NCBI GenBank assembly: GCA_030685015.1
Contig: JAUXWS010000087.1
Coordinates: 24,822-88,821 of the forward strand
Direction of reading: 5' to 3'
Source: a bacterium
GTDB taxonomy: Bacteria > CAIWAD01
Length of the DNA: 64,000 nt
Shown: piece after piece, positions 3,255 through 60,753 of the stretch
How the letters are laid out: every line of letters starts with the position of its first letter
How positions within the stretch are numbered: position 1 is the first letter of the stretch
Program-made: the position numbers and the translations under genes
The notes under the pieces: model-generated
Database searches by the model: none
What the model saw: only the letters and a program-made list of their open reading frames with translations
What the model was told of the DNA's origin: nothing

Positions 3255-3301
3255 GCTTCAATCAGTCCAAATAAAGCTGATTGTTCGAGTCCTGCTTACT
3301 C

Positions 3302-4456: not shown

Positions 4457-4479
4457 TGTTTCCCCTGTTTGATCGTGAA

Positions 4480-5514
4480 CTAATCTGCCCTTCCTGCATT
4501 GGCGACTGGCATGATTAAAAAAGGAAGATAGTTTATTGTGCCCAACTGAGTTTCAACACGATGATCTATCATCCTTCCGGCAATCACGTCATCTTGTGTT
4601 GTTCCCCAGTAGTTCTCAGTGACATCAACAGTACCTGACACAACCTTTACAAAGTTCGCCTCGTTACTAATGTTGTTTTGCCTGATATTATTTCTACCAT
4701 ATAGCGCGCTATGAAAGTAAATAACATACCGTTCTTGTCCTGCGAAGTCGCAATATGTGATGTTTAGATCATTTCTTTGACGCTCATAGATATGGTAAAA
4801 ATTGGCGTAAAAATCTATATAAGTGGCATGCAAAAAATCCTCGCCATGACAATATAGGCCAACATTTGAGCAATGCGATATTTCTCCATTATCAATGATC
4901 ATTCCTGATCGAATATTATAAATTCCTATCTCACAGTTACTAATTGTGAATCTTGTCATAATCAATGAATCAACATTATTAGAGCAATACAGTCCATATT
5001 GGCTATTCATGATGGTCAAATCTTCAATTTCCGCCCTCGCCACGTTGTCGCAATAGATACTATAAATTTCGTTTTCATCCATGGTTAACCTGCTTAACAT
5101 CACCCGTTGAGCCGCACGGATCTCTAGGCCTATTTGTCCACCCTCGATGTCCACATTATCCAGCGCCAGCGTCCCTTCAGCATGCTCGTACTTTAAACTA
5201 TACCATGGCCCTGCACCCAAGCGCTTCACAACCAAGTGGGCATCGTCCTCCAAGAGTATCATAGGAGGCAACTTGCAAGTAGCCCCCTCAGCCAAGCGGA
5301 ATTCCACCTCGCCGCGGATCACCAATCCAGCGTCGTTCCCTTCATACAAAAACGCCAAATCACCTTCGATGGTTACGCGCTCGTTGGGGCCAAAGCTCGC
5401 CGCTGTGGTCTGATCGCCCAAGACGGTCACATTCCTCCACGTGGTTCCCTCATCCTTGTGACAGGCCATCGCAAGAAGCAGCAATGACAAGGGCATGATA
5501 TGACTGGCTCTCAT
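4480..5514 (-). CDS. right-handed parallel beta-helix repeat lipoprotein (pectate-lyase-like fold)
   Basis: Lipoprotein-type signal (LLLLAMAC) is followed by repeated N/D/G/I/Y-rich beta-helix turns (NVDIEGG, CDNVARAEIEDLTIMNSQYGLYCSNN...). AT-rich gene. Confidence 0.55.
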   Translation of the reverse strand: MRASHIMPLSLLLLAMACHKDEGTTWRNVTVLGDQTTAASFGPNERVTIEGDLAFLYEGNDAGLVIRGEVEFRLAEGATCKLPPMILLEDDAHLVVKRLGAGPWYSLKYEHAEGTLALDNVDIEGGQIGLEIRAAQRVMLSRLTMDENEIYSIYCDNVARAEIEDLTIMNSQYGLYCSNNVDSLIMTRFTISNCEIGIYNIRSGMIIDNGEISHCSNVGLYCHGEDFLHATYIDFYANFYHIYERQRNDLNITYCDFAGQERYVIYFHSALYGRNNIRQNNISNEANFVKVVSGTVDVTENYWGTTQDDVIAGRMIDHRVETQLGTINYLPFLIMPVANAGRAD

Positions 5515-8703: not shown

Positions 8704-10581
8704 TCAGCCCTGTACATTGCCCACGGCGTCCAATTGTACTGCCCTCCTCGACGGGCAGGTCACCAGCCAGGTGGCCTTCTGGCCATCCTCGAACACGACG
8801 TCCACGGGAATGCTGGCGTGCTCCAGGGGAGCCGTGCTTTCCACGCGCAGGCCCTCGGCTGCAAAGGCAATCTTCACGCTGGCACGGTCGCTTAGCACGT
8901 CCCGCCAGTAGACACCCAAACCGTACACCGTGTTGATCCAGAAATCACCCGAAAATGCGTGCAGGACGTGGCGCAGGATGGCCTCGGTGAGCCGTGGTCC
9001 CACCCACCCCGTGAACTGCCGCATGTGCTGGTGGCACATGAAGATTACGGGGATGGCCTTGCGCATGGCGCGGTGAATCCAGAACAGGTTCATCCAATAA
9101 TGGAAGATGTGCTCGGGATCGCCGGGATAACGTTTGGTTAGCTCCACAGCCTGTCGAGCGCCCGGCGCCCAATGCGGGGGCGGCTGCAGCAGGACATTAT
9201 GCTTGGTCCGCACGTCGGAATCGGACAGCACTTCGCAGCCCGCCGCTTCCATGGCCTTGGGTGTGAAAGCATCGTTGGTGCGGTCGGGCATGGCCCAAGA
9301 TTTCGGCGTGAACCCGAAATGCAATTCGCTCATGCGCCGCATCTCCAGTGCGTTGTCGCGCTGCTCCGCCAGCGAACCTTCATTGTCGCTCAGCCACCGG
9401 TAACGGCCAGCACCCATGCGGGCGTCCAGCTTCCATCCGTTCTCCTCCGCCGTCGCTGTGTCCGTACCGTAATGCAGGTGGCCGTGGTTGCCTAGCTCGA
9501 TTAGATAGGGCAGGGAACTGTCGAAGGGATAGCTGGCGCGGTGCCGCAGCTCCACGTGTTCATTCATCCACGAGATGAAGCGCGGGATCTGGTCCGCGCC
9601 ACGGTCGATGCCGTAGTACGCGGCCCAGCGGGTCGCCTCCTCTTCATCCAGCGACAGCCGGGACGAGAGGTACATGGTTTGCGGCATGCGGTAGCGTGAC
9701 GCTATGTCAAAGGTCAGGGTCAGCCCCTCGATGGACTGACACGTAGAGGTGTCGTAAATATCCATGTCGCCACGCCAGGCGAAGGCTGATGTGCAGGCTC
9801 CGGGCCAGCGGGTAACAGCAGCCGATGTAATCCGGGGTGCCCGTGCGAGGACGGCCTCGACAGCCAAGTTGGCGCGCCAAGTGCTCTCGCCCCATTCGCA
9901 GGTCAAGTCGATGTGTGAGCTGGCAGCGGCGGCCACCGCCTCGAAGTCAAGATCCACGCGATGGATCTGGCCGGTCTTTAGCACTCCCAGCTGTCGTTCA
10001 GCTTCCCCCAACAACTTCACGCCATCCCCCGTGGCCACCCGCAAGCGCTGGGCGGTCTGCGTAGGAGTAATGGTGTGGTTGCCCACGACGACCTGCACGC
10101 GCCAGCGGCGGCCCACCGCCATTGTGCCCATGGAATACGAGGGGCGCCGCTGAGTGAAGGGACCTATAATAGTAAAGGTCAACTGCGGATGCATTGAAGG
10201 GGCGGGATAGGCACGGGCCAACCCGCGGCTGCAAGCAGCATTCGTCGGTTCGGGGCCGATTGTGTCCCGGGTGTTCCAGACTTCGTTCATGAACCGCCGT
10301 TCTTGGCGGGTTAACTGAAGCGACCATACTAGCAGAACAACTGATAAGGCCAAGACGAACACTACATCTAATCCTCCCCACCATAGGGCCAAGAGGCCGA
10401 CCATAACCGCCGCAGTCTCGAAGCGGTGCCGGGGAACACCCAGCTTTTTGGGTCCCACCTCGCCCACGATGTTGGCAATGTAGAACAGCCAGCCCAACCT
10501 ACCAGGAGCCAGCCAAACGAGGCGCTGCACCACATGGAAGGCCACCAATGCGATGCCCAAAAGCAGTTGAATCATCCTCAC
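8704..10581 (-). CDS. membrane-anchored polysaccharide deacetylase-like protein (3 N-terminal TM helices plus large extracytoplasmic domain)
   Basis: GTG start overlaps the TGA of the upstream gene (GTGA). Motifs AWRGDMDIYD and LGNHGHLHYG resemble NodB/deacetylase active-site regions. Confidence 0.5.
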   Translation of the reverse strand: MRMIQLLLGIALVAFHVVQRLVWLAPGRLGWLFYIANIVGEVGPKKLGVPRHRFETAAVMVGLLALWWGGLDVVFVLALSVVLLVWSLQLTRQERRFMNEVWNTRDTIGPEPTNAACSRGLARAYPAPSMHPQLTFTIIGPFTQRRPSYSMGTMAVGRRWRVQVVVGNHTITPTQTAQRLRVATGDGVKLLGEAERQLGVLKTGQIHRVDLDFEAVAAAASSHIDLTCEWGESTWRANLAVEAVLARAPRITSAAVTRWPGACTSAFAWRGDMDIYDTSTCQSIEGLTLTFDIASRYRMPQTMYLSSRLSLDEEEATRWAAYYGIDRGADQIPRFISWMNEHVELRHRASYPFDSSLPYLIELGNHGHLHYGTDTATAEENGWKLDARMGAGRYRWLSDNEGSLAEQRDNALEMRRMSELHFGFTPKSWAMPDRTNDAFTPKAMEAAGCEVLSDSDVRTKHNVLLQPPPHWAPGARQAVELTKRYPGDPEHIFHYWMNLFWIHRAMRKAIPVIFMCHQHMRQFTGWVGPRLTEAILRHVLHAFSGDFWINTVYGLGVYWRDVLSDRASVKIAFAAEGLRVESTAPLEHASIPVDVVFEDGQKATWLVTCPSRRAVQLDAVGNVQG

Positions 10582-12961: not shown

Positions 12962-15304
12962 TCACCTTTTCACGTTATAACGATACTTGGGGAAGAAACT
13001 CTCAGGCACATCATCAATTCCGTGCACGATCTGGTTGCGCTCGCAAAGGGTTTCGTAGGCGGCCCCATCCACAACAATCCGTTGCGTGCTATACGGATAT
13101 ATCACTTGTGAGAAGCCAAGTTTGAATTGAAAAAGCTCGTCATCACGGCCACCCAATCCTCCTCCCAAGTTAAGCCATTCGGCACCAGATTCCGCATAAT
13201 ACTCAAAAGCTTTGTAAAACATGAGTTTCGATGGCGCCCAGTTGAGATGGTCATCCGTGGTGCCGCCAAGGTGATATTGGACAATACCGCCAGTTCGCAC
13301 GAATAGACCACCGGCGACGACCTTTCCCGCTGGGTTCAGAACCGATATCAAAGCGACATTCGGGCTCAGAACACGACGAAAATCATCGAAATATGCCCCA
13401 CTGAAGAAGTAATAGCGAGCCGCATTGACTCGGGTCATTGTCTGCGCGTATAGTTTTTGAAATACAGTATAATCTTCCCAGTGGTTAATTCGGACTTCGA
13501 AACCAGCCTTCTGGAGTTTTCGGATTGCACGTTTGTGGCTGTTCCGCATGCCCTGCTCAAAAGTGGCCAGATCTTGCCGAAGATTGATCATTACAGTGTT
13601 GCCATGCTTGAAGATCTCCCCCATGGCGCTGGCTGTCTCTGAGAAACAGCCCAGCAACGGGTGGTTGCGGAGAAATAGTGATACAATGTTATTCTGATAG
13701 CAGTAATGTTTTAGAGCCTTCATCAACTCATTCACTTGTGATTCGAAAACAGCATAGACTAGTGGTCCAGGATAGCCATATGGACTATATGCATCCCAAA
13801 GTCTATTTTCGGTAAGAGTCGTTGGTACGAGCCGCAGCAGAAGTGGAACGAACAATTCAGTTTCCCCCAATGTGATGTGCAGTGCAAGTGAACGAACTTC
13901 TTCTTCGCGTGCGCATAGCTTAAGATAGCCCGGCAGGTGATAGAAGTCATGGGGCAATCTTCCCAACACACGTTCCAGCTCCGCAGGTTGATCCAACAAA
14001 TCCCGAATCCTGCTTCGAATTCTTAAGGCGGGCACCCCGACTCGAGTTTCATATCCTTCACTGTCAACGATCTGCACGCTACCCGCTCCGAGTATTGTCC
14101 AGGGACGGATCCGCAGCTGAGGCAATACGCAGCATCCAACTCCTGCGAAAACACCCTCCTCAATATTGGCACCACCGCCCAAATGGACCCCAGGACACAA
14201 GTGGACATGATTCTTAATCAGGCAGTCATGGTCGACACTGCAGGAAGTGTTGAGAATCACGTTGCAACCGATAGATGCTCCAGTATTGACCACAACTCCG
14301 GCTGCAATGAAGGTGCCCATTCCTATTGGAACATCATCGGCAATGACCGCCGAAGGATGGATTACTGCTCGAACTTGCACTCCAGATTTAACCAACCAAT
14401 GAAACACTGTCATCCTTAATTGGTTGCTGCCAAAACCAATGATAACACAGTCGCAGCCACCTGCGCCAAACATAGTTGAAGCGATCGGGCCATACACTGG
14501 CCGGCCAAGGCAAGTCTGGCCATGTAACTGAACATCGTCATCTAGAAATCCGACCAGTTGCAGTTCTCCACCCGACTTCTCGGTGCACAGCACGGCATCC
14601 CCGATCACCCGGCCATGCCCGCCAGCCCCTAGCACCATAATCCTAGTCTTGGGCGAATGACCAATAAACTCGGGCATGGTGGCGTACCTTGGATGGCTGA
14701 TGCCCTCCCTTCTCACCACAAGAGAAACGGTCTTCCAAAGAATCCAAAAGTCAAGCATCAGGGAGTGGCGCTCAACGTACTCCACATCGTGCTCGAAACG
14801 CTCCTCCCAACTCAAGGAGTTGCGGCCTCGGATCTGCGCCAAACCCGTAATCCCGGGCTTCACCTCATGGCGACGGGCTTGGCGCGGGGAATAGCGTGGA
14901 ATGTACTCGACCATCAAGGGGCGCGGACCCACCAAGCTCATCTTACCACGCATCACCAACAGCAATTCAGGCAGCTCGTCAAGCGATGTGGAGCGCAGCC
15001 ACGCGCCAAACGGAGGAATGCGCTCCTCATCTGGCAGCAGGCGGCCCTGTGCGTCACGGGCGTCCGTCATGCTGCGGAACTTGACCAGTTCGAACAAAAG
15101 CCCATGCAGCCCCGGCCGTGTTTGCCTGAATAGAACCGGACGCCCTAGTTTAAATGCGATGGCCAGGGCCAATCCCATGAACATCGGCGCGAGCAACACA
15201 AGGGCGACCGCCGAGGCGCCGATATCAAACAAGCGTTTACCTGCCCGCCGGTATAGCCCTTGGCGCTCTAACCGCGCGGACGCCCAGCCGGAATCTGGAA
15301 TCAC
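12962..15304 (-). CDS. tri-domain fusion: bacterial sugar phosphotransferase (PglC/WbaP C-terminal type), NeuD/PglD-like hexapeptide N-acetyltransferase, and FemAB-related acyltransferase domain
   Basis: Domain 1 is KRLFDIGASAVALVLLAPMF...SLVGPRPL...PGITGLAQI. Domain 2 is MVLGAGGHGRVI...hexapeptide repeats. Domain 3 is ...AARYYFFSGAYFDD...VQYHLGGTTDDHLNWAPSKLMFYKAFEYYAESGAEWLNLGGG. The likely start is a GTG overlapping the upstream TGA (GTGA at 15301-15304). The long N-terminal extension in the ORF table overlaps the upstream gene. Confidence 0.7.
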   Translation of the reverse strand: MIPDSGWASARLERQGLYRRAGKRLFDIGASAVALVLLAPMFMGLALAIAFKLGRPVLFRQTRPGLHGLLFELVKFRSMTDARDAQGRLLPDEERIPPFGAWLRSTSLDELPELLLVMRGKMSLVGPRPLMVEYIPRYSPRQARRHEVKPGITGLAQIRGRNSLSWEERFEHDVEYVERHSLMLDFWILWKTVSLVVRREGISHPRYATMPEFIGHSPKTRIMVLGAGGHGRVIGDAVLCTEKSGGELQLVGFLDDDVQLHGQTCLGRPVYGPIASTMFGAGGCDCVIIGFGSNQLRMTVFHWLVKSGVQVRAVIHPSAVIADDVPIGMGTFIAAGVVVNTGASIGCNVILNTSCSVDHDCLIKNHVHLCPGVHLGGGANIEEGVFAGVGCCVLPQLRIRPWTILGAGSVQIVDSEGYETRVGVPALRIRSRIRDLLDQPAELERVLGRLPHDFYHLPGYLKLCAREEEVRSLALHITLGETELFVPLLLRLVPTTLTENRLWDAYSPYGYPGPLVYAVFESQVNELMKALKHYCYQNNIVSLFLRNHPLLGCFSETASAMGEIFKHGNTVMINLRQDLATFEQGMRNSHKRAIRKLQKAGFEVRINHWEDYTVFQKLYAQTMTRVNAARYYFFSGAYFDDFRRVLSPNVALISVLNPAGKVVAGGLFVRTGGIVQYHLGGTTDDHLNWAPSKLMFYKAFEYYAESGAEWLNLGGGLGGRDDELFQFKLGFSQVIYPYSTQRIVVDGAAYETLCERNQIVHGIDDVPESFFPKYRYNVKR

Positions 15305-32106: not shown

Positions 32107-32132
32107 TGATCATCAGCAGCCCACGGGGACAA

Positions 32133-32338
32133 CCCCCGGGCAACCCCCGGGCAACACCAGGGCAACACCAGGGCAACACCAGGGCGGCACCAGGGCAACA
32201 CCAGGGCAACACCAGGGCAACACCAAGGCGACACCAGGGCAACACCAGGGCAACACCAGGGCGACACCAGGGCAACACCAGGGCAACACCAGGGCAACAC
32301 CAGGGCGACACCAGGGCGACACCAGGGGGCCAATTCGC
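32133..32338. repeat. 11-bp tandem repeat array, about 18 copies (consensus CACCAGGGCAA)
   Basis: Two cccccgggcaa units are followed by caccagggcaa units with occasional A-to-G or G-to-A variants. The array fills the whole gap between the TauE stop (32104-32106) and the reverse-strand stop at 32340-32342. It has no stop codon in any of the six frames. Confidence 0.95.
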
Positions 32339-32339
32339 C

Positions 32340-32624
32340 TCAGTAGCAGGCGTCGCGTCCAGTGCTGATGCTGAAAGCCGCCCGGTCTCGACCCTGGCGG
32401 TAATCCACCACCGCCTCCTCCACCCACTCCCGCTCCTGGGAATCCATCAGCACGAGGATCCCATTGACGTGAAGCTGTTTATCACTCTCCTGCGGCTCGT
32501 CCAGAGCCAGCCCCAGGCGGGGCCCGCCTCACCCGTGGCCGGCGATGGTGACACGCAAGCCCGCGCCGGGGTGTTCGGCCAGGATGGCCTGCAGGCGCTC
32601 CCGCGCCTTGTCGGTGATCTGCAC
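32340..32624 (-). CDS. IscA/HesB-like iron-sulfur cluster insertion protein with an in-frame TGA (candidate selenocysteine) at the conserved Cys position
   Basis: Reverse-strand translation from GTG 32624 gives (M)QITDKARERLQAILAEHPGAGLRVTIAGHG-TGA-GGPRLGLALDEPQESDKQLHVNGILVLMDSQEREWVEEAVVDYRQGRDRAAFSISTGRDACY*. It aligns to E. coli IscA [23 protein letters not shown] with the TGA (32529-32531) opposite Cys35. The hairpin GCCCC-gcct-GGGGC begins 6 nt after the TGA. Confidence 0.55.
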
Positions 32625-32688: not shown

Positions 32689-32717
32689 TTGACGCCGCCA
32701 GACCGGCCACATAATAT
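32689..32717 (+). promoter_or_regulatory. near-consensus sigma70-type promoter (TTGACG, 17-bp spacer, TAATAT) overlapped by a 23-bp perfect palindrome
   Basis: The -35 element is 32689-32694 and the -10 element is 32712-32717. The palindrome AATATTTCATG-C-CATGAAATATT (32713-32735) covers the -10 and the predicted transcription start site. Confidence 0.5.
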
Positions 32718-32977
32718 TTCATGCCATGAAATATTTCAACAAGACCTTGGATTGTCACAAGTTCGACATGCTGACACATTGTTAGTTATGACGTATTCTG
32801 GCAGATTTGCGGGCGCCCTGTCGTATGTCAATACAAGCGGAACGGGCGGTTCAGCCTGGCTTTCCTTTGTCAATCAGGGTGCTGCGGTTTTTGCCGCTTC
32901 GGTGGCTTCGCGCGGACCATCCCGGGGCTTCGCCGGCGGATGCTCGCGGAAGGGACTCAACCATGTCAGGAGGATCC

Positions 32978-33796
32978 ATGTCGACCCGCATCTGGCTCTT
33001 GCTTGTCTGTCCGGCCCTGGCCTTCGGCTATGCCAGCGGTCCGCCCAACGGCCTCACGGGCGCGCCCGGCGAAGGCACCTGCATCCAATGTCATGACAGT
33101 TTCGGTTTGAACAGCGGCAGCGGCCTGCTCACCATCAGCGGTCCGGACGAGTATGAGCCGGGCCAGACCTATCCCATCACGGTCACGCTGGCCCACGCCG
33201 GCCAGTCCCGCTGGGGCTTCCAGATGACCCCCCTGGACTTGGGAGCGCTCCTGGTCACGGACTTCGTCAACACCCAGGGCAGCAGCACGGGCGGCAACAG
33301 CTACGTGAAGCACACCACGACCGGAACCCAGGCCGGCACGGCGGACGGCCCGGTGAGCTGGACCTGCGACTGGATCGCCCCGGCCACCGACGTGGGACCG
33401 GTCACCTTCTACGCCGCCGGCAACGCGGCCAACGGCAACTTCAGCAACAGTGGCGACTACATCTACACGGCCTCCTTCACGACGGAGTTCCCCACGGGCA
33501 TGGCGCCCGTCCTTGTCCGTGGCTTCGCCCTGCTGGACGCCTATCCCAACCCCTTCAATCCCGGCACCACCCTGCGCTATCGCCTCGATGTCCCCGGCGA
33601 AGCGCGGCTGGAGGTCTACGATCTGGCTGGCCGTCTGGTGGACCGGCTGGCCCAGGGCTGGCATGGCGTGGGCGAGTACACGGCGCGCTGGGCCGGATTG
33701 GCGCAGGGCGGCCGACCCGCCGCCGCCGGCGTCTATCTGGCCCGCCTGGAGTTGAACGGCGCGGCCGAGGTGAAGCGCCTCCTGCTGGTGAAGTGA
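32978..33796 (+). CDS. secreted protein with single CxxCH motif and C-terminal T9SS-type (Por secretion tail) sorting domain
   Basis: Signal peptide MSTRIWLLLVCPALAFGYA. CIQCH lies 25 aa after the predicted cleavage site. The C-terminus YPNPFNPGTTLRYRLDVPGEARLEVYDLAGRLV...GVYLARLELNGAAEVKRLLLVK matches the T9SS C-terminal domain consensus. The alternative ATG at 32963 is possible. Confidence 0.65.
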   Translation: MSTRIWLLLVCPALAFGYASGPPNGLTGAPGEGTCIQCHDSFGLNSGSGLLTISGPDEYEPGQTYPITVTLAHAGQSRWGFQMTPLDLGALLVTDFVNTQGSSTGGNSYVKHTTTGTQAGTADGPVSWTCDWIAPATDVGPVTFYAAGNAANGNFSNSGDYIYTASFTTEFPTGMAPVLVRGFALLDAYPNPFNPGTTLRYRLDVPGEARLEVYDLAGRLVDRLAQGWHGVGEYTARWAGLAQGGRPAAAGVYLARLELNGAAEVKRLLLVK

Positions 33797-33816: not shown

Positions 33817-33843
33817 AAAAGGGGAAGCACGGCCTCCCCTTTT
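33817..33843. terminator. bidirectional rho-independent terminator between convergent genes
   Basis: aaaagggga-agcacggcc-tcccctttt is a GC-rich stem flanked by A-runs and T-runs on both strands. Confidence 0.7.
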
Positions 33844-44040: not shown

Positions 44041-44780
44041 GTGGACTCGTCCGCCCAGTTCCCGAGCTGGACGGCGACCAGCCGGTGGGCGTCTGGCCAG
44101 GCAGCCCGCCCCGGGTCCTGTGGAGCGACGCCCGGCTCCTGATCCTGGTCAAGCCTTTCAACATGCCGGTGATGGAGGATGAGAGCGGCGACCTGGATCT
44201 TCTCTCCTGGGGTCGGGCCTGGGTGGAAAGGATTTACCACAAGCCGGGCCGCGCCTGGCTGGGCCTGATCCACCGCCTGGACCGCCCCGCCGCCGGACTT
44301 GTCCTGTTGGCGCGCACCTCGCAGGCCGCCGCCCGGCTTAGCGCCCAGTTCCGCCGCCGCACCGTGGGCAAGGTCTACCGGGCCTGGCTGCATGGGACCC
44401 TCGACCGCGCCGAAGGCCGCCTTGAGCACCGGCTGGCCAAGGAGCGAGACCGCAATTTCGTGCGCCTGGCCGACGCCGGGGATGCCGCGGGGCGGGAGGC
44501 CCGCCTGGCTTATCGCCTGCTGGAGCGCCGCCTCCTGCCCGGCCACGGCCCGGCCACTGAAGTGGAGATCCGCCTTGAGACTGGCCGCCCCCACCAGATC
44601 CGTGTCCAGTTCGCCGCCCTGGGGCACCCCCTCGTCGGGGACCTCAAGTATGGCGCCGCGTCGCCGCTGCCGGAGGGGCAGCTGGCCCTCTTCGCGGCCG
44701 GGCTGGCGGCGGCCCATCCGGCCGGTGGACGGCGCATGAGCTGGACGGCGCCCCTGCCGGCAAAGTGGGGCTCTTGGTAG
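44037..44780 (+). CDS. RluA-family pseudouridine synthase
   Basis: Catalytic HRLD motif (LGLIHRLDRPAAGLVLLART) and C-terminal GRPHQIRVQFAALGHPLVGDLKYG motif. GTG start overlaps the upstream stop. Confidence 0.8.
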   Translation: MSGLVRPVPELDGDQPVGVWPGSPPRVLWSDARLLILVKPFNMPVMEDESGDLDLLSWGRAWVERIYHKPGRAWLGLIHRLDRPAAGLVLLARTSQAAARLSAQFRRRTVGKVYRAWLHGTLDRAEGRLEHRLAKERDRNFVRLADAGDAAGREARLAYRLLERRLLPGHGPATEVEIRLETGRPHQIRVQFAALGHPLVGDLKYGAASPLPEGQLALFAAGLAAAHPAGGRRMSWTAPLPAKWGSW

Positions 44781-45298
44781 GCGGACGCGGCCCTGCCACC
44801 GGAGTGGCGGCTCTCCGCACCCGGCTGGAGACATGCCGGCGCCTGATCGTCCTCTGCGCCCCCGGCCTTTTCCCCGCCACCGGTCTCCCGAGCCCCGGCG
44901 CGACTATCGTCCTTGAGATGTCCCGCTTCTTCGAGGACGTCCTCCTGGTGGACGAGGAGAGCGGGGCGGCGGCCTGGCATGGTCGGCAAGGACTGCTACA
45001 AGGAGATGCGGGCAGCCTGGCCAAACGCTTCCTGACCCTGGGGGCGGATCTCTGCCTGGTGGCGGGCGCCCCCTGCCGGACCCCGGAAGTGGCGGCCGTG
45101 GTGGTGGCGGCCTGGCGGGCCGGCGTGCGGATCGTCGAGCTGGGTCCGGCACCCTCGGAGCTGGCCCCGCTGGCCGGGGAGCGGGTGGACGGGTCCACGG
45201 AGGAGCTGCTGGAGGACCTGTGGGATCGCTTTCTCGGGGATGGGGCGGATCATGCCTTGAACAAAGGGGTGGATCGACTGGGACGGCACACCCCATAG
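44765..45298 (+). CDS. hypothetical protein (no recognisable domain)
   Basis: GTG start overlaps the rluA-like gene by 16 nt. An alternative ATG lies at 44918. The coding call rests only on the high-GC3 frame. Confidence 0.3.
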   Translation: MGLLVGGRGPATGVAALRTRLETCRRLIVLCAPGLFPATGLPSPGATIVLEMSRFFEDVLLVDEESGAAAWHGRQGLLQGDAGSLAKRFLTLGADLCLVAGAPCRTPEVAAVVVAAWRAGVRIVELGPAPSELAPLAGERVDGSTEELLEDLWDRFLGDGADHALNKGVDRLGRHTP

Positions 45299-49845: not shown

Positions 49846-50361
49846 TCAGTCCGCCCAGGACGCCGCCATGCGGCGCATGACGCCGCGGTGCTCCGCCTCG
49901 TGCTGCAGCAGGTGCGTCAGGATCCAGTCCGGGGCCGCCGCCCCTTCCAGTCCCAGGACCAGCTCTCCCAGTCCATCCTCCCGCAGGCGGAGGCATTCCG
50001 TCACAAGCCGCGAGCGGGACTCCTCCAACGCCGCGAGCAATTCCGGCAGGGTGGCGGTCCCGGCCCGGGCCAGCCGTCCGTCCGGGTCCAGGACATCCGC
50101 GATGGGCAGCAGCGCCAGTGCCTCGGCGGGAATCTCCCGGCCCAGCAGGTCGCAGTAGAGCCAGTCCAGCTCGATGGCGGCCAAGTGGGCCAGGTGGGCG
50201 GCCAGACTGTTGGGGAACTGGGGCGAGGACCAATGCAGACGCTCGGGCGGCACCGCCGCCACGACGCGCAGGGTCCGTCGCCGGCCCTCCTCCAGTTGGG
50301 CCAGCAGCAGGCTGAGCCTGCCATCGCCCCCCGCCGCCGGCAAGCGAAAGGGATCTCTCAT
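49846..50361 (-). CDS. DinB/YfiT-like (DinB_2) four-helix-bundle metalloenzyme family protein
   Basis: Start MRDPFRLP. The LLQHEAEHRGVMRRM C-terminal His motif is typical of the DinB_2 family. The Arg-rich upstream extension is discounted. Confidence 0.55.
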   Translation of the reverse strand: MRDPFRLPAAGGDGRLSLLLAQLEEGRRRTLRVVAAVPPERLHWSSPQFPNSLAAHLAHLAAIELDWLYCDLLGREIPAEALALLPIADVLDPDGRLARAGTATLPELLAALEESRSRLVTECLRLREDGLGELVLGLEGAAAPDWILTHLLQHEAEHRGVMRRMAASWAD

Positions 50362-50837
50362 CCGGTCCGACCCTTGACGGGGCGGGCGGGCACGCCGGCC
50401 ACCACGGCGCCGTCGGGCACGTCCTTCGTCACCACGCTGCCCGCCCCCACCATCGCGTCCCGGCCGATCGTCACGCCGCAAAGGATGGTGGAACCAGTGC
50501 CGATGGAGGCTCCCGCCAGCACCCTCGTGCGCTCCAGGGTCCAGTCCTCCTCGGTCTGGGGCGAGCCGTCCGCCCGCGTGGCGCGGGGGCGCCGGTCATT
50601 GATGAAGGAGACGTTGTGGCCCACAAAGACGCCGTCGCCGATCTCCACCCCCTCGCAGATGAAGGTGTGGCTGCTGATCTTGCAGTTGCGGCCGATGCGC
50701 GCGCCCTTCTGGATCTCCACGAAAGCGCCCACCTTGCTCCCATCGCCGATCTCGCAGCCGTAGAGGTTGACAAAGCAGAAGATCCTGACCCCCTCGCCCA
50801 GCTTGACGTCCGGCGCGATCCTCGTATAAGCCTCCAT
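50358..50837 (-). CDS. hexapeptide-repeat acyltransferase (WbbJ/maltose O-acetyltransferase-like)
   Basis: Left-handed beta-helix repeats (VGHNVSFINDRRP...IGTGSTILCGVTIGRDAMVGAGSVV). Confidence 0.75.
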   Translation of the reverse strand: MEAYTRIAPDVKLGEGVRIFCFVNLYGCEIGDGSKVGAFVEIQKGARIGRNCKISSHTFICEGVEIGDGVFVGHNVSFINDRRPRATRADGSPQTEEDWTLERTRVLAGASIGTGSTILCGVTIGRDAMVGAGSVVTKDVPDGAVVAGVPARPVKGRTG

Positions 50838-56370: not shown

Positions 56371-58502
56371 GACTCCTCCTCTCCCACGCCGTCCAGCCAG
56401 TCCTGCAGTTCGATGGCGATGCGGGTGGCGCCCAGGGCCTCCTCCGGTGACATGGCGGGCGGGGCTTCTCCCCGGGCGGCCTGCAGGAAGGCTGTCAGCC
56501 CCGCCGCGTGGCCTTTGTCGGCCTGCTCCCAGCTGCGCGCACCTCCCTTGGCGTCGTGGTGGACCAGGCGGTGGAAGTCCTCGAGGATCCAGCTCGTCGC
56601 GCCGGCATGCACTTCAATGCGTTCCTTCTCCAGGCCGGGGCCGCCTTCGCTCAGGTATTGGATCTGGGCCAGGCTGCCGTCGGGATAGGACAGCGTGAGC
56701 GCGAACTGGTCGACCACACCCGGACTGGCCGCCAGGGCGGGCAGGGCGCGGACCGCGGCCTCCTCCGGCTGTGCGCCGGCCAGGAAGGAGCAGAAATCGA
56801 TGAAGTGGCAGCCCTCGCCGATGAGGCGGCCGCCTCCTTCGCCGCGTTGCTGCACCCAGGAGGCGGGCGGAATGCGGCCGGCATTGATCCGGTAGGTGAT
56901 GAAGAGGGGTCCGCCGCGTGTCAGGATCCCGTCGCGCAGGCGTCGTGCCAATGGAGCGAAGCGCCGGTTGTAGCCCACCTGGAAGACCTGCTGGCCGGGA
57001 GCAAGTGCCCTCTCCAGCGCCTCGACCTCCTGCCGGCGGATGGCGGCGGGTTTCTCCACGAAGACATGCTTGCCGGCCGCCAGCGCTTGCAGGCAGAGCT
57101 CGGCGTGGCTGTCATGGCGCGTGGCGATGAGCACGGCCTGGACCCCCGCGTCGGCCAGCAGGGGGGCAGGGTCCGTTCCCGACCAGGGCACCTTGAATTC
57201 GGCGGCCAGCTTGCCGGCGGTGAAGCCCCCGCGGGCGACCAGACCGCGCAGTTCCACCTGGGACAGGGCGGCCAGCACGGGCAGATGGACGCGGGCACAG
57301 AAGCCCCCCGCCCCGATCACGGCCAGGCCCAGCCTCCCCTCCCGCGCCACCACCATCGGCAGCGGAAGAGGGTCCTCCGCCGCGAGCGCCGGGTATTGCA
57401 ACAGCACGGCCAGGTGTGTCTCCGGTTCGCCCTTGATGCCGTCGAAGGCCTGCACGGCCTGCTCCACGGGGTAGACGCGCGGCTCCAGCAGGTCGGGGCG
57501 CAGGCGTCCGGAGCGCATCAGCTCCAGCACGGCCTGCAGGTTGCGGTTTTCCGTCCACCGGGCATGGGCCGGGGGATAGTCGCGACCGCGCTGCTCGTAA
57601 TCCGGGTCGTAGCGGCCGGGTCCGTAGGAGCAGGCGATGCGCAGTTCCACCTCCTTCTCGTAGAAGGGGCTGCGCGGCACATCCATCCCCACCGCGCCCA
57701 CCACCACCACCCGACCACGCTTGCGCACCAGCTCCATCGCCTGGGCCAGCGGGCGGCTCGAGGACGTTCCTGCCGCAAGCAGCACGAGATCCGCGCCCAG
57801 GCCTCCGCTCAGACGCCGCACGGCCTCCGCCACGCCCGCGTCGTCGGCGGGCAGGGCCAGCTCCGCCCCGCAGCGCAGCGCCGCCTCCAGGCGGCTGGGC
57901 AGCAGGTCCAGCCCCACCACGCGGCAACCGTTGGCCGCCAGCAGTTGCACGGCCAGCAAGCCGATGAGGCCCAGGCCCGTCACCACCACCACCTCGCCCA
58001 GGCGCGGCCCGCCCTGGCGGATTCCCTGCAGCGCGATGCTGGCCACGGTAGTCCAGGCGGCGTCGCGGGTGGGAACCCCCTCGGGCACCGGCGCCACCAG
58101 GAGGCGCGGCACGGCCACCACCTCGGCGTGGGCGGCGATGCCCGATCCGGCGCAGGCGACCCGGTCCCCCGGCCGCAGGTCCTGCACACCCAGGCCGACG
58201 GTCAGCACACGGCCCGCGCTGCTGTATCCCACCGCCTGGGCGATGTTGTCCACGTGGGCGGCCTTGCGCCAGAGGTCGCGCAGGCTGTTGTTGCGCACAG
58301 CCTTGAGTCCCTTGCGCAGCAGGTCCCGACGCACCTGCAGCTGCCCGCGCAGGTCGCCGGGCAGCACCAGGCCGCCGGTCTCCGTGCCCGCGCTGATCAG
58401 GCTGAACTCGTTCAGCACCAGCACCTGCCCGGCATCGACCCGCGGGCGGGGCACCTCGCGCACCACCATGCGCTGCTCCTTGGTCTTGAAGACCTGCTTC
58501 AC
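56364..58502 (-). CDS. bi-domain oxidoreductase: N-terminal zinc-type MDR alcohol dehydrogenase-like domain fused to C-terminal Gfo/Idh/MocA domain
   Basis: Residues 1-340 have an MDR fold ([43 protein letters not shown]). Residues 370-712 carry a Gfo/Idh/MocA motif ([16 protein letters not shown]...EKPAA). Confidence 0.7.
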
Positions 58503-59689
58503 ACGCGTTCCTCCAGGTGGTAAGTGTCACACGACAGGGGCAGGGGCAAAGCGACGAAGCGACCACGGGCCGTGTCCCGCACGCGGTGGACCTGTCCGTC
58601 TCTGCCGCGCAAGGCGGCCAGGCGGGGATTCCGCACTTCCAGCTCCAGACGATCCAGCCGGTCAACGGCAGACCCTTCCAGGCGCAGCGTGCCGGCCATG
58701 AGGTGCAGGCGCACCCGCTCCCTCAATCGCCAGTGGTCGGCGATTTCGCTGGGATGTGCGTGCCAGTGGGATCGATTCGCCAGCCGCCGCAACAGCCAGG
58801 TCACCGCGGATTGGTCGTCCTGCAGGTTGTTGCGCTGGCGGCGACCGTCCTCGCGACTGGGGGCGATGTGCTCCTGGATGGTGAGTGGAAGCCCGGCCTC
58901 CTCCAATTGGAGGCATTGCCGCAGCCAGGTGCGCCGCAGAACTTGTCTCTGCCGCCAGCGCAGGGGCCAGCGCTCCATCTCCTCCCGCAAGTAGGGAGGC
59001 AGCACGTTCCCGGCCAGGGTGGTGGGCAACTCAAGCCACGCCCCGCCGGCCCGCCAGCCGGGTGTCAGCTCGGAGCATTGGGTGTCCGTGTCCTGGATTT
59101 GGGAGCGGTTGAACCGTGGGCACCACCAGCGAAATCCACAGGCGGCCACGGCCTCGTCGGAGTGCTCGTTGCTGGCGTAGCCCGGGTACTTGCCGCCCAC
59201 AGGCGGACGCATGAACACGCGGTCCCAGATCTCCAGCCCGCGGCGCGTCTCCGCCACCGCCTCCTCCACGCTGGAAAAGGTGCGGAACTCCTGATCACGG
59301 GCAGCGCCTTCCCCGCGGAAGTGGTCCTTGCCGTGGTAGCAGCACTCCACCCGGGGGTGGGCCTCCAACCCGCGCAGGAATTCCACCATCTCCGGCCGCT
59401 GGGCGATGGAGTGGAAGCGCGACCCCGCCGGCGGGGACGCGAGGGGCTGGCGATTGACCGGGATGAAGAGGCTGATGCGCAAGTCCGGGAAGGGCTCCAG
59501 CAGGGTGCGCTCCACAAAGCGCCAGGCCGAATCTGGACCACGGCCCAGGTTTCCCCAGTCCCGCTCGCGGCCACGGCAGCCCGGCGCCGGGATCCACACG
59601 TCCGCCAGGTCGTCCACCATCAGGTTGAGGGGCGCGGCGGCCCCGCCGGGCCAGCGGGCCACGCGCAGCGCGGTCAGAGCTTCCATGCG
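58499..59689 (-). CDS. polysaccharide deacetylase-like (putative carbohydrate esterase) protein
   Basis: Start MEALTALRVARWP. Motifs NLMVDDLADVW and CCYHGKDHFRGE are suggestive of a deacetylase/DUF2334-type fold. Assignment is tentative. Confidence 0.4.
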   Translation of the reverse strand, partial: RMEALTALRVARWPGGAAAPLNLMVDDLADVWIPAPGCRGRERDWGNLGRGPDSAWRFVERTLLEPFPDLRISLFIPVNRQPLASPPAGSRFHSIAQRPEMVEFLRGLEAHPRVECCYHGKDHFRGEGAARDQEFRTFSSVEEAVAETRRGLEIWDRVFMRPPVGGKYPGYASNEHSDEAVAACGFRWWCPRFNRSQIQDTDTQCSELTPGWRAGGAWLELPTTLAGNVLPPYLREEMERWPLRWRQRQVLRRTWLRQCLQLEEAGLPLTIQEHIAPSREDGRRQRNNLQDDQSAVTWLLRRLANRSHWHAHPSEIADHWRLRERVRLHLMAGTLRLEGSAVDRLDRLELEVRNPRLAALRGRDGQVHRVRDTARGRFVALPLPLSCDTYHLEERV

Positions 59690-60753
59690 GCCTTCATCCG
59701 TCCCAGGGCCCGCACTCCGTCGCGCAGGGCGTTCACCGGCCCGGGACGACGGTGGCGCAGGCGCCACATGCCGCGCACCTCCGGATTCCACTTGAGCTTG
59801 TAGTCCTCCTCGCCGGCCATGAAATCCAGGCGGGTCACGCCCCGGCGGCACAGATCCTCCACCACATCCCAGAGCATCAGCTTGCCGATGGAGAAGGGAA
59901 AGAAGGCCGGGTCGTAGCTGGTGATCCAGTCGAAGAAGGCACCCCGGTGCAGAAAGCCCAGGCGGTAGGCCACCAGCCCGCCCTCTTCCCGGCAGGTGTA
60001 ACACGCAAAGGCGCCCCGCTCCGTGGCCAAGCGCCCCACCTTCCCGATGAAGGCGCGGCGGGCCGGATCCAGCAACGAACTCTTGTGGCCCTCGGCCTGG
60101 AAGCGCAGACGCGACAGCTCCGTCAGCCCGGCCAGGAGCGTCGTGTCGCAGCAGGTCTCCAGCGTCAGCTCCACCACGTGCCCGACCTCCGCCAGCCGTC
60201 GCTTCTTCTTGGCCACATCGTGGCGCAGGTTTTTGCCCACCGCTCTCTCCAGCGCCTCCCAGCCAGGGGAGAGGTCGAGGAGCGGATTGCCCTCCACCCG
60301 CTGCCGCTCCCAGCCCCGGCCTGCGAGCCGCTCCGCCAGGGGAAAGGAGGCCGTCCCTTCGATGAGGGGCAGGAGCCGGGCTTCATGGACACGCCGGGAC
60401 GCGTCGTCCAACCAGGCCGCCACCTGCTCCATCGCCTCGCCGTCGCCGTCCCGCACCAGCAAGGGCAGGGCGTCGGTGAAGCCGTCGCCCGCGGGGCTGA
60501 GCACCCGGTGCGAGACGGGGGAGCGGGGGTCACGCTCCCGGCGCTCCCACATCGGCAACAAGGCGCGCACGTCGCGATCCCGGCGGAAGGCCAGCACCCG
60601 GACCCCGTCCGAGGCGAAGTGCTCCAGCCAGACCTCCACCCACCACCGGGTGGTCTGGATGTGGGGGTGCACACCGTCCTCCGCCAGACGATCCCAGGCA
60701 TCCGCGCAATCCCCGGCCAAGGGCAGGGGCCACTCCTCACAGATCCAGCTCAT
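59674..60753 (-). CDS. FemAB-related / CelD-like GNAT acyltransferase (EPS-locus associated)
   Basis: Start MSWICEEW. C-terminal YRLGFLHRGAFFDWITSYDPAFFPFSIGKLMLWDVVEDLCRRGVTRLDFMAGEEDYK. The upstream part of the ORF-table entry is an alternative frame of the neighbouring gene. Confidence 0.6.
   Translation of the reverse strand: MSWICEEWPLPLAGDCADAWDRLAEDGVHPHIQTTRWWVEVWLEHFASDGVRVLAFRRDRDVRALLPMWERRERDPRSPVSHRVLSPAGDGFTDALPLLVRDGDGEAMEQVAAWLDDASRRVHEARLLPLIEGTASFPLAERLAGRGWERQRVEGNPLLDLSPGWEALERAVGKNLRHDVAKKKRRLAEVGHVVELTLETCCDTTLLAGLTELSRLRFQAEGHKSSLLDPARRAFIGKVGRLATERGAFACYTCREEGGLVAYRLGFLHRGAFFDWITSYDPAFFPFSIGKLMLWDVVEDLCRRGVTRLDFMAGEEDYKLKWNPEVRGMWRLRHRRPGPVNALRDGVRALGRMKAAWKL

What the first reader, a model, noticed from the sequence alone, without database searches (positions are those of the whole stretch)
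32978..33796. T9SS-tailed secreted protein carrying a single CxxCH heme-binding motif
A signal peptide is followed by GPPNGLTGAPGEGTCIQCHDSF. The CxxCH motif sits 25 residues after the predicted cleavage site, a position typical of class I c-type cytochromes. The last 80 residues match the type IX secretion C-terminal sorting domain. A c-type-heme protein as T9SS cargo would be uncommon. The tail also constrains the host lineage, since T9SS is characteristic of the FCB group and Gemmatimonadota-like lineages. The gene has a 250-nt leader downstream of a strong promoter that overlaps a palindromic operator.
Basis: partly seen in the sequence, partly recalled or inferred. Interest (0 to 1): 0.55.

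Follow-up and report, generated by a model that had tools for sequence, protein, structure and literature searches.

The report
Surface-sorted Reeler-like protein with heme motif
This gene encodes a secreted protein from a large, already named but unstudied bacterial family (choice-of-anchor V): an all-beta "Reeler-like" head that always carries a heme-c-type Cys-x-x-Cys-His motif, plus a type IX secretion tail, so it is probably a cell-surface heme protein, but it is not a classical cytochrome c and heme binding is untested.

Summary
The ORF at 32978-33796 (+) encodes 272 aa: a signal peptide, GPPNGLTGAPGEGTCIQCH, and a C-terminal T9SS type A sorting domain (TIGR04183, 31.4 bits against a cutoff of 23).

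- **Identity.** The N-terminal 150 aa are the curated NCBIfam domain NF041895, "choice-of-anchor V" (121.6 bits, cutoff 42). The identical protein is in GenBank under that name.
- **Fold.** The AF2 model (pLDDT 92) is an all-beta sandwich. Its closest solved fold is the F-spondin Reeler domain. It is not a class I cytochrome c, and no cytochrome c profile matches.
- **Motif.** C-Xn-CH is present in 260 of 262 family members (n=2 in 217, n=3 in 16, n=4 in 26, n=5 in 1). The two exceptions are truncated fragments. The first Cys sits 17-18 residues from the signal-peptidase site, and the +1 residue is Tyr or Phe in 77%. There is no second invariant His or Met.
- **Reading.** I think a covalent heme c site is likely (about 0.6). 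Its geometry may resemble cytochrome f (Tyr1 ... CxxCH on a beta domain).
- **Not tested.** The window holds no T9SS or cytochrome-maturation genes, so genome-level support could not be checked.
- **Promoter and palindrome.** The flagged promoter and palindrome more plausibly serve a divergent HesB-like gene with a conserved in-frame TGA (candidate selenoprotein).

The family is large (at least 5,600 clusters at 50% identity), and I found no experimental literature on it.

The parts
32978..33796 (+). CDS, 272 aa: choice-of-anchor V domain protein with a T9SS type A tail. Identical to GenBank MDP2361535.1.
32968..32974 (+). Shine-Dalgarno sequence AGGAGGA, 3 nt before the ATG
   Evidence: read directly from the sequence
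32978..33028 (+). Sec signal peptide (aa 1-17, ...ALAFG|Y)
   Evidence: alignment with homologs; -1/-3 statistics in 254 relatives
33029..33478 (+). Choice-of-anchor V domain (aa 18-167): Gly/Pro-rich N-terminal segment, a helical turn at CxxCH, then a 9-strand Reeler-like beta sandwich
   Evidence: NF041895 121.6 bits; AF2 pLDDT 92, pTM 0.87; Foldseek hit to the F-spondin reeler domain 2zot, E=2.2e-6
33080..33094 (+). CIQCH (aa 35-39), candidate covalent heme c attachment site with His as proximal ligand
   Evidence: C35, C38 and H39 invariant; C-Xn-CH in 72/72 genomic instances and 260/262 proteins
33479..33541 (+). Linker (aa 168-188) with lower model confidence
   Evidence: pLDDT 73 for residues 171-180
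33542..33793 (+). T9SS type A C-terminal sorting domain (aa 189-272), 7-strand Ig-like
   Evidence: TIGR04183 31.4 bits > 23 and FlgD_ig 31.8 > 27; PorU and PorZ CTD hits; strands in the AF2 model
33822..33839 (.). GC-rich hairpin with T-runs on both sides, between this gene and the convergent DHODH-like gene; probably a bidirectional terminator
   Evidence: sequence
32750..32799 (+). About 45-nt block conserved upstream of the family gene(s) in three relatives (GATTGTCnCAAGTTnGACA...TTGTTAGT...TAnTTC); candidate promoter or regulatory site of this gene. It includes the CTGACA-17-TATTCT match.
   Evidence: alignment A4
32713..32735 (.). Perfect 11+11 nt palindrome in the shared divergent intergenic region. 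It lies in the spacer of the best promoter match, on the minus strand (TTGAAA-17-TATTAT, 32739..32711), which points to the HesB-like gene.
   Evidence: imperfect in L082 and absent in L081, which also lacks the HesB-like gene

Best explanation
The gene encodes a monocistronic, Sec-exported, surface-sorted protein built from two modules.

**Module 1 (aa 18-167)** is the choice-of-anchor V domain, a bacterial Reeler-like beta sandwich. Its Gly/Pro-rich N-terminal segment carries an invariant C-Xn-C-H. I infer that in the periplasm one heme is attached covalently to the two cysteines, with His39 as proximal ligand. No internal Met or His is conserved, so the distal side is either open or closed by something else. 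One candidate is the free alpha-amino group of the mature N-terminal Tyr, as in cytochrome f. Another is the invariant Lys111.

**Module 2 (aa 189-272)** is a type A T9SS C-terminal domain. It would take the folded holo-protein through the outer-membrane translocon. It would then be removed, leaving the head attached to the cell surface.

**Function.** The most likely role is a surface-exposed one-electron redox or small-ligand site acting on extracellular substrates, with iron as one candidate.

**Shown here:** the gene, the signal peptide, family membership, the fold, motif invariance, its fixed distance from the cleavage site, and the CTD match.

**Inferred:** heme attachment (about 0.6), actual T9SS transport (about 0.75), the distal ligand (about 0.25 for the N-terminal amine), and the physiological role (low).
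For: **Family and fold.** NF041895 scores 121.6 bits against a cutoff of 42. The AF2 N-domain model has pLDDT 92 and pTM 0.87, with a helical turn exactly at CxxCH. The best solved fold is the F-spondin reeler domain (E=2.2e-6, TM 0.55). A profile search of PDB sequences hits Spondin-1 at E=0.006. Pfam Reeler matches 9 of 71 longer relatives at E<=1e-4; two relatives tested singly scored above its gathering cutoff.

**Motif.**
- C35, C38 and H39 are invariant.
- All 72 domain instances in 80 genome loci from about 10 phyla have C-X2-4-CH.
- 260 of 262 proteins have it, and the two without are truncated fragments.
- Insertions occur only between the two Cys, never between the second Cys and His. 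That is the behaviour expected of heme c sites.

**Position.** The domain starts at median residue 23, directly after an AxA-type site. The +1 residue is Tyr or Phe in 77%. The +1 to first-Cys distance is 17 in 218 members and 18 in 31 of 254. Cytochrome f has Tyr1 ... C21ANCH25, with Tyr1-N and His25 as heme ligands (PMC8044140), on a beta-sheet domain (PMC7908018).

**Fusions.** Rare fusions to redox modules exist: cupredoxin PF00127 and PQQ-type GSDH. Fusion to an outer-membrane beta-barrel, DUF5777, occurs in Acidobacteria.

**T9SS.** TIGR04183 is above its cutoff, the CTD is a 7-strand sandwich, and there are PorU and PorZ CTD hits. A review states that CTD distribution tracks T9SS core genes with few exceptions (PMC10202324).
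Against: - No cytochrome c HMM matches; the only trace is Paired_CXXCH_1 at E=0.19.
- No heme protein appears among the top 50 structural matches.
- The Reeler fold has no known heme precedent. Its function in the Reeler-containing cytochrome b561 proteins (CYBDOMs) is stated to be unknown (PMC10691727).
- No second invariant His or Met exists. H112 is replaced by Q or N in some members.
- Variable Cys spacing would also fit a small disulfide loop or a Cys2His metal site.
- No ccm/ccs or T9SS genes lie in the 64-kb window, and no WWD heme-handling motif was found.
- No redox gene is a conserved neighbour.
- Most fused modules are Ig-like spacers, dockerins and anchors, an architecture equally typical of adhesins.
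- Three of about 254 members carry a roughly 40-residue extension before the domain, which argues against an obligatory free N-terminus.
- Similarity to cytochrome f is not significant (hhalign probability 16.6%).
- Pfam's own Por_Secre_tail model is below threshold.
Confidence: 0.55

Rival explanations
1. This is a non-heme Reeler-like surface binding module. The domain would be an adhesin or ligand-binding head (glycan, mineral or host surface), like eukaryotic Reeler domains. The two cysteines would form a short disulfide loop or, with His39 and an acidic residue, a structural or functional metal site (Zn, Cu or Fe) that staples the N-terminal segment onto the sandwich.
For: - The fold and weak sequence similarity point to the F-spondin reeler domain and to Pfam Reeler in relatives.
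- The invariant residues are rich in Trp, Tyr, Asn, Gln, Asp and Arg (RWGF, W128, W132, N149, D160, Q100), as in sugar-binding sites.
- The head sits at the tip of Ig-repeat stalks, dockerins and anchors.
- Cys spacing varies from 2 to 5.
- No distal heme ligand is conserved, and no cytochrome profile matches.
Against: - An invariant His directly after the second Cys in 260 of 262 members, with insertions tolerated only between the cysteines, is the signature of heme c. It is unexplained by a simple disulfide.
- Thiolate metal sites are uncommon in surface-exposed proteins (general knowledge).
- Fusions to cupredoxin and PQQ dehydrogenase modules suggest redox partners.
Confidence: 0.3
2. This is a class I (mitochondrial-type) soluble c-type cytochrome with a T9SS tail. 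It would have an alpha-helical fold, His/Met ligation and an electron-shuttle role.
For: The only support is a CxxCH near the mature N-terminus.
Against: - No Cytochrom_C-type Pfam or NCBIfam hit was found.
- The high-confidence model is all-beta apart from one helical turn.
- No Met is conserved.
- A different curated family matches at 121.6 bits.
Confidence: 0.02
3. The C-terminal domain is not a working T9SS signal in this organism. It would be a FlgD-Ig-like domain with another role (cell-wall or matrix attachment, oligomerisation), and the protein would stay periplasmic or be released some other way.
For: - Pfam Por_Secre_tail is below threshold, while FlgD_ig is above it.
- No T9SS gene lies in the 64 kb.
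- The lineage is an uncultured candidate phylum for which I found no T9SS literature.
- Experimental work on T9SS is confined to Bacteroidota.
Against: - TIGR04183 is above NCBI's trusted cutoff, and partial matches to PorU and T9SS-dependent protease models cover the same region.
- The profile hits the PorU and PorZ CTDs in the PDB.
- The domain sits at the extreme C-terminus and ends in the typical basic residue.
- The same tail is swapped for other anchors (TM helix, dockerin, beta-barrel) in relatives, as expected of a sorting signal.
- CTD presence correlates with T9SS genes in surveyed genomes (PMC10202324).
Confidence: 0.12

Closest known systems
NCBIfam NF041895, choice-of-anchor V domain (and the related NF041894 MXAN_6652 family)
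   Same: This protein is a member. It scores 121.6 bits against a cutoff of 42 over aa 8-167. The domain sits directly after the signal peptide and is followed by an interchangeable sorting or anchoring module. The identical protein is named this way in GenBank.
   Different: Nothing differs. However, the family is only a name. The full-text library held no paper mentioning it or MXAN_6652, and no structure is solved.
Reeler domain (Pfam PF02014; F-spondin reeler domain, PDB 2zot/2zou)
   Same: It is the best solved-structure match (Foldseek E=2.2e-6, TM 0.55). There is also a weak profile hit (E=0.006). Pfam Reeler matches 9 of 71 relatives at E<=1e-4; two relatives tested singly scored above its gathering cutoff.
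   Different: The window protein itself does not reach the Pfam threshold. The bacterial domain has an extra conserved N-terminal segment with C-Xn-CH that lies outside the aligned Reeler core. Eukaryotic Reeler domains are described as adhesion modules of unknown function (PMC10691727).
Type A CTD cargo of the type IX secretion system (TIGR04183 / PF18962; e.g. RgpB, PorZ, Hbp35)
   Same: It has a Sec signal peptide and an 80-residue, 7-strand Ig-like C-terminal domain above the TIGR04183 cutoff. The same region shows similarity to the PorU and PorZ CTDs.
   Different: The Pfam model is below threshold. The organism is not a Bacteroidota member. Known cargo classes listed in the review include a heme-scavenging protein (Hbp35) but no covalent-heme protein (PMC10202324).
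Cytochrome f (PetA)
   Same: This is a functional analogy only. Cytochrome f is a c-type heme on a beta-sheet domain. It has an aromatic residue at mature position 1, CxxCH about 20 residues later (Y1...C21ANCH25), and no internal distal ligand because the N-terminal amino group binds the iron (PMC8044140; PMC7908018). Here the arrangement is Y/F at +1, Cys at +18, a fixed spacing, and no conserved distal His or Met.
   Different: No homology is shown: hhalign probability is 16.6%, and cytochrome f is absent from the top 50 fold matches. There is no transmembrane anchor, no b6f context and a different sandwich. Three family members have an N-terminal extension.
Class I c-type cytochromes
   Same: Both have a CxxCH near the N-terminus of an exported protein.
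   Different: The fold is all-beta rather than helical. No profile matches, and no Met ligand is conserved.

Membership tests
Choice-of-anchor V domain (NCBIfam NF041895) | HMM score above the curated cutoff | tested here: met
   121.6 bits against a cutoff of 42, aa 8-167, profile positions 2-149 of 150
Choice-of-anchor V domain (NCBIfam NF041895) | Domain directly follows the signal peptide and is followed by an interchangeable C-terminal sorting or anchor module | tested here: met
   The domain starts at median residue 23 in 254 members. Tails in relatives include T9SS CTD, dockerin, TM helix and beta-barrel. Here the tail is a T9SS CTD.
T9SS type A CTD cargo | N-terminal Sec signal peptide | tested here: met
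   There is a basic n-region, a hydrophobic core and A-F-G|Y. The -1/-3 rule holds across relatives. No dedicated predictor was available.
T9SS type A CTD cargo | C-terminal domain matches the type A model TIGR04183 (NCBI cutoff) | tested here: met
   31.4 bits against a cutoff of 23, aa 189-269
T9SS type A CTD cargo | C-terminal domain matches Pfam PF18962 above its gathering score | tested here: not met
   15.3 bits against 27, with only aa 189-221 aligned. FlgD_ig PF13860 scores 31.8 against 27 instead.
T9SS type A CTD cargo | Seven-strand Ig-like fold of the CTD | tested here: met
   The AF2 model has 7 strands between aa 183 and 270 at pLDDT above 90. There are PorU and PorZ CTD sequence hits and a PorU fold hit.
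T9SS type A CTD cargo | T9SS core genes (sprA/sov, porV, porU, gldK-N) in the same genome | not testable with these tools
   None is among about 45 genes scanned in the window. The rest of the MAG could not be fetched.
c-type cytochrome (any class) | CXXCH (or CXnCH) attachment motif, conserved | tested here: met
   C35, C38 and H39 are invariant. The motif is present in 260 of 262 members and the 2 exceptions are truncated.
c-type cytochrome (any class) | Covalently bound heme | not testable with these tools
   This needs heme staining, hemochrome spectra or mass spectrometry.
c-type cytochrome (any class) | Cytochrome c maturation system (Ccm or CcsBA) in the genome | not testable with these tools
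   None is in the window, and no WWD-motif protein was found.
c-type cytochrome (any class) | Identifiable distal ligand or heme pocket | tested here: inconclusive
   No second invariant His or Met exists. Candidates are the N-terminal amine and K111 or Y109.
Class I cytochrome c | Match to cytochrome c profiles, a helical fold and a Met distal ligand | tested here: not met
   No Pfam or NCBIfam cytochrome c hit was found. The model is all-beta. No Met is conserved.
Reeler domain (PF02014) | Pfam HMM above its gathering score | tested here: inconclusive
   The window protein has no hit at E<=1. Nine of 71 longer relatives hit at up to 1.2e-7. L018 scores 25.9 and L004 scores 25.1, against a cutoff of 21.
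Reeler domain (PF02014) | Reeler beta-sandwich fold | tested here: met
   2zot_C is the top Foldseek hit: E=2.2e-6, TM 0.48/0.55.
Cytochrome f | Sequence or fold homology to PetA | tested here: not met
   hhalign probability is 16.6%. Cytochrome f is not among the top 50 Foldseek hits.

The most novel reading that the evidence does not exclude
The choice-of-anchor V domain would be an unrecognised, very widespread class of all-beta c-type cytochrome built on the Reeler fold. Its single heme would be held by C-Xn-CH and closed by the mature N-terminus, convergent with cytochrome f. Bacteria from many uncultured phyla would display it on their surface through interchangeable anchors (here T9SS) for extracellular redox chemistry such as iron reduction or oxidation. 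This would also give a first functional hint for the Reeler domains of eukaryotic ferric-reductase-type proteins.
Probability: 0.25. Interest if true: 0.75.

Novelty: new member of a known kind. Interest (0 to 1): 0.45.

Why it matters
If the invariant C-Xn-CH really binds heme, thousands of surface-anchored proteins in uncultured phyla (Zixibacteria, Poribacteria, Ignavibacteria, Krumholzibacteria, Acidobacteria, Planctomycetota and others) would be mono-heme redox proteins. Standard cytochrome searches miss them because they have no cytochrome c fold. That would change estimates of extracellular electron-transfer capacity in metagenomes. It would also add covalent-heme proteins to the known T9SS cargo classes and give a testable function to the Reeler fold. 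If it does not bind heme, this is an ordinary member of a named adhesin-like family.

Tried and rejected
- **Conserved neighbours.** I clustered 1,074 ORFs from 80 genome loci. The only recurrent neighbours came from closely related Poribacteria genomes, so nothing was usable.
- **Window-wide scans.** The window holds no second T9SS-tailed protein, no WWD heme-handling motif, no second family paralog, no rRNA or tRNA and no Rfam family.
- **Leader.** There is no Rfam hit at E<=1 apart from a chance snoRNA match, and the folding z-score is -0.27. I rejected a riboswitch or attenuator reading.
- **SECIS.** A hairpin after the TGA of the HesB-like ORF folds no better than shuffled sequence.
- **N-terminal peptide against PDB.** The 48-residue N-terminal peptide gave no PDB hit.
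- **Cytochrome f homology.** It is not significant, so I kept it only as an analogy.
- **Literature.** Searches for 'choice-of-anchor V', MXAN_6652, T9SS plus multiheme, and T9SS plus c-type cytochrome found nothing relevant. A search for reeler plus heme plus bacteria returned only tick and insect papers.
- **Source genome.** It was not among the 80 genome loci returned, so T9SS and ccm genes could not be looked up.
- **Lipoprotein reading of Cys11.** I rejected it. The preceding residues are L-L-V, not a lipobox, and homologs lack this Cys.
Full report
**1. What is in the sequence**

- It has a strong Shine-Dalgarno sequence (AGGAGGA, 32968-32974).
- It has coding-type codon bias (GC3 0.84).
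- A GC-rich hairpin at 33822-33839 separates it from the convergent DHODH-like gene.

The 272-aa product starts with a signal peptide, MSTRIWLLLVCPALAFG|YAS. It contains the quoted GPPNGLTGAPGEGTCIQCHDSF. Cleavage after G17 puts the first Cys at mature residue 18, not 25.

The neighbours look functionally unrelated:
- YchF, two ABC exporters and TauE upstream;
- a DHODH-like gene, DUF302, PTPS and a 2-oxoacid dehydrogenase operon downstream;
- polysaccharide-synthesis clusters at both ends of the window.

No T9SS, ccm or ccs gene is in the window, and no other protein there carries the same tail.

**2. Identity**

NCBIfam gives an unambiguous answer. Residues 8-167 are the choice-of-anchor V domain (NF041895, 121.6 bits, cutoff 42). 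Residues 189-269 are a T9SS type A sorting domain (TIGR04183, 31.4 bits, cutoff 23).

Pfam sees the tail mainly as FlgD_ig (31.8, cutoff 27), with Por_Secre_tail below threshold (15.3). It sees no cytochrome c family.

The identical protein is already in GenBank as MDP2361535.1, 'MAG: choice-of-anchor V domain-containing protein [bacterium]', on a 166-kb contig.

The family is large. A profile of the N-domain finds 8,541 clusters at 50% identity with E<=1e-3 and 5,601 with E<=1e-10. In one-genome-per-species data at least 425 loci encode it. They span Zixibacteria, Poribacteria, Ignavibacteria, Krumholzibacteriia, Blastocatellia, Planctomycetota, Gemmatimonadota, Marinimicrobia and Calditrichaeota.

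I found no paper on the family and no solved structure.

**3. Fold**

AlphaFold2 with a 65-sequence alignment gives pLDDT 92.6 for the whole protein. The N-domain alone gives pLDDT 92.0 and pTM 0.87.

The model consists of:
- an ordered Gly/Pro-rich N-terminal coil;
- one helical turn exactly at C-I-Q-C-H;
- a nine-strand beta sandwich;
- a short linker;
- a seven-strand Ig-like C-terminal domain.

The best solved-structure match to the N-domain is the human F-spondin reeler domain (2zot and 2zou, E=2.2e-6, TM 0.55). A sequence profile also touches Spondin-1 (E=0.006). Pfam's Reeler model matches 9 of 71 longer relatives (E<=1e-4); two relatives tested singly scored above its gathering cutoff.

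The domain is therefore a bacterial Reeler-like sandwich with an added N-terminal segment. It is not a class I cytochrome c.

**4. The CxxCH**

Invariant residues in the alignment are P30, C35, C38, H39, R78-W79-G80-F81, Q100, K111, W128, W132, N149 and D160.

- All 72 domain instances in the 80 genome loci have C-Xn-CH (n=2 in 55, n=3 in 5, n=4 in 12).
- Of 262 proteins (the nearest 120 plus the top 150 cluster representatives, some of which overlap), 260 have it (n=2 in 217, n=3 in 16, n=4 in 26, n=5 in 1). The two without are N-terminally truncated fragments.
- Insertions occur only between the cysteines. The Cys-His dipeptide is never separated. From general knowledge of heme c sites, including rare CX3CH and CX4CH sites, this is the expected pattern. 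It is not explained by a plain disulfide loop.

No other His or Met is invariant. H112 becomes Q or N in several members.

**5. A positional regularity**

The domain is essentially always the first thing after the signal peptide.
- Profile position 1 sits at median residue 23 (5-95%: 17-36).
- The residue before it is A, G or S in 93%.
- The +1 residue is Tyr or Phe in 77%.
- The distance from +1 to the first Cys is 17 (218 cases) or 18 (31 cases) out of 254.

Conservation that begins at the cleavage site, together with the missing distal ligand, recalls cytochrome f. Its mature chain is Y1...C21-A-N-C24-H25. Its heme is ligated by His25 and the N-terminal Tyr1 (PMC8044140). It sits on a beta-sheet domain (PMC7908018).

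This is an analogy, not homology. hhalign gives 16.6% probability, and cytochrome f is not among the top 50 fold hits. Three members carry a roughly 40-residue extension before the domain, so a free N-terminus cannot be universal.

**6. Context from domain fusions**

In relatives the same head is followed by many different modules:
- T9SS tails (159 of 262 by an HMM built from the family's own tails);
- dockerins;
- TM helices;
- Ig, PKD, TIG and FixG_C repeats;
- a DUF5777 outer-membrane beta-barrel (Acidobacteria);
- occasionally a cupredoxin or a PQQ-type glucose/sorbosone dehydrogenase.

The head is therefore displayed at the distal end of surface structures. The redox fusions favour an electron-transfer role but are rare. 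The general architecture fits an adhesin equally well.

**7. T9SS and lineage**

A review states that CTD-bearing proteins track T9SS core genes with few exceptions. It lists no covalent-heme cargo, only the heme scavenger Hbp35 (PMC10202324).

The window's YchF is 84% identical to a cluster containing a protein labelled Candidatus Delongbacteria. NCBI lists that candidate phylum outside the FCB group. Beyond about 24 relatives, identity drops to about 50%.

I could not retrieve the rest of the genome.

**8. Upstream region**

The palindrome at 32713-32735 is real and perfect. The intergenic region is shared with a divergent small gene at 32340-32624 (minus strand).

That gene is IscA/HesB-like. 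When its internal TGA is read as Cys, it scores:
- Pfam Fe-S_biosyn: 33.9 bits, above its cutoff of 26.3;
- NF038090 IscA_HesB_Se: 58.9 bits, below its cutoff of 85;
- TIGR01911 HesB_rel_seleno: 29.5 bits, below its cutoff of 66.35.

The TGA sits in AG[HYF]G*GGPRLGLALDEP and is conserved, with the frame maintained after it, in relatives L082, L083 and L068. This makes it a candidate selenoprotein of a known kind.

The best promoter match (TTGAAA-17-TATTAT, 10/12) lies on the minus strand, with the palindrome in its spacer. The palindrome is imperfect in L082. It is absent in L081, which also lacks the HesB-like gene.

A different block, 32750-32799, is conserved upstream of the family gene in all three relatives compared. 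It is my candidate for this gene's own promoter region.

Relatives carry a second paralog (242-246 aa, no T9SS tail) between that block and the T9SS-tailed gene. The window lacks it, which probably explains the long untranslated stretch. The leader has no Rfam match and no unusual structure.

**9. Verdict**

- The gene is a new member of a known, curated but uncharacterised family.
- Heme c binding is likely but unproven (about 0.6).
- The class I comparison is wrong.
- T9SS sorting is probable (about 0.75).
- The promoter and operator more plausibly belong to the divergent neighbour.

The more interesting question is at family level: whether choice-of-anchor V domains are a hidden class of beta-sandwich surface cytochromes.

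Noticed in passing
window 32340-32624 (minus strand); TGA at 32529-32531; also L082/L083 8787-9053 and L068 9493-9759: A small IscA/HesB-like ORF lies divergent from the target and carries an in-frame TGA at the position of the conserved cluster-binding Cys (AGHG*GGPRLGLALDEP). The TGA and the downstream reading frame are conserved in three relatives, where gene callers called an antisense ORF instead. It is a candidate HesB-like selenoprotein (NF038090 IscA_HesB_Se 58.9 bits and TIGR01911 29.5 bits, both below their cutoffs). No SECIS-like hairpin folded better than shuffled sequence.
   Followed up: partly
window 32130-32327: A tandem repeat of an 11-nt unit (CAACACCAGGG), 18 copies with 93% matches, lies between the convergent ends of the TauE gene and the HesB-like ORF. 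It produces long spurious ORFs in several frames. Its function is unknown.
   Followed up: no
L081 9238-9966; L082/L083 9232-9972: Close relatives carry a second choice-of-anchor V paralog (242-246 aa) with a short fn3-like tail instead of a T9SS domain. It sits 28-35 nt upstream of the T9SS-tailed gene, so the two likely form an operon. The window has lost it or never had it (tblastn negative).
   Followed up: yes
L072, L073, L060 (Acidobacteria MAGs): In these loci the same N-terminal C-x-x-CH Reeler-like head is fused to a DUF5777 'membrane bound beta barrel' domain. From memory, this architecture resembles fused cytochrome-porins such as Cyc2.
   Followed up: partly
L007 (GN15/Zixibacteria MAG) and P0108: The family head is fused to a PQQ-type glucose/sorbosone dehydrogenase plus dockerin (L007) and to a plastocyanin/azurin-type copper domain (P0108, plus one further member). 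These are the only redox-partner fusions seen.
   Followed up: partly
window 2000-5500 and 13000-15000: G+C drops to 41-55% inside the left polysaccharide-synthesis cluster (Wzx-like flippase, pyruvyl transferase, beta-helix protein, sugar transferase), against about 66-72% elsewhere. This suggests horizontally acquired surface-polysaccharide genes.
   Followed up: no
window 8704-10581 (-), 58499-60004 (-), 49888-50763 (+), 44765-45298 (+): These ORFs have coding-type codon bias but no Pfam match at E<=1e-4.
   Followed up: no
L081 8830-9030: Two copies of a roughly 120-nt direct repeat, each with an internal inverted repeat (GGAGTCGGAC...GTCCGACTCC), occupy the position where the window and L082 have the HesB-like gene.
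   Followed up: no
P0318, P0321, P0335: Three family members have about 40 extra residues, Cys- and acid-rich and not a signal-peptidase site, immediately before the otherwise N-terminal domain. They may be propeptides or lipoprotein-type tethers. They bear on the N-terminal-ligand idea.
   Followed up: no
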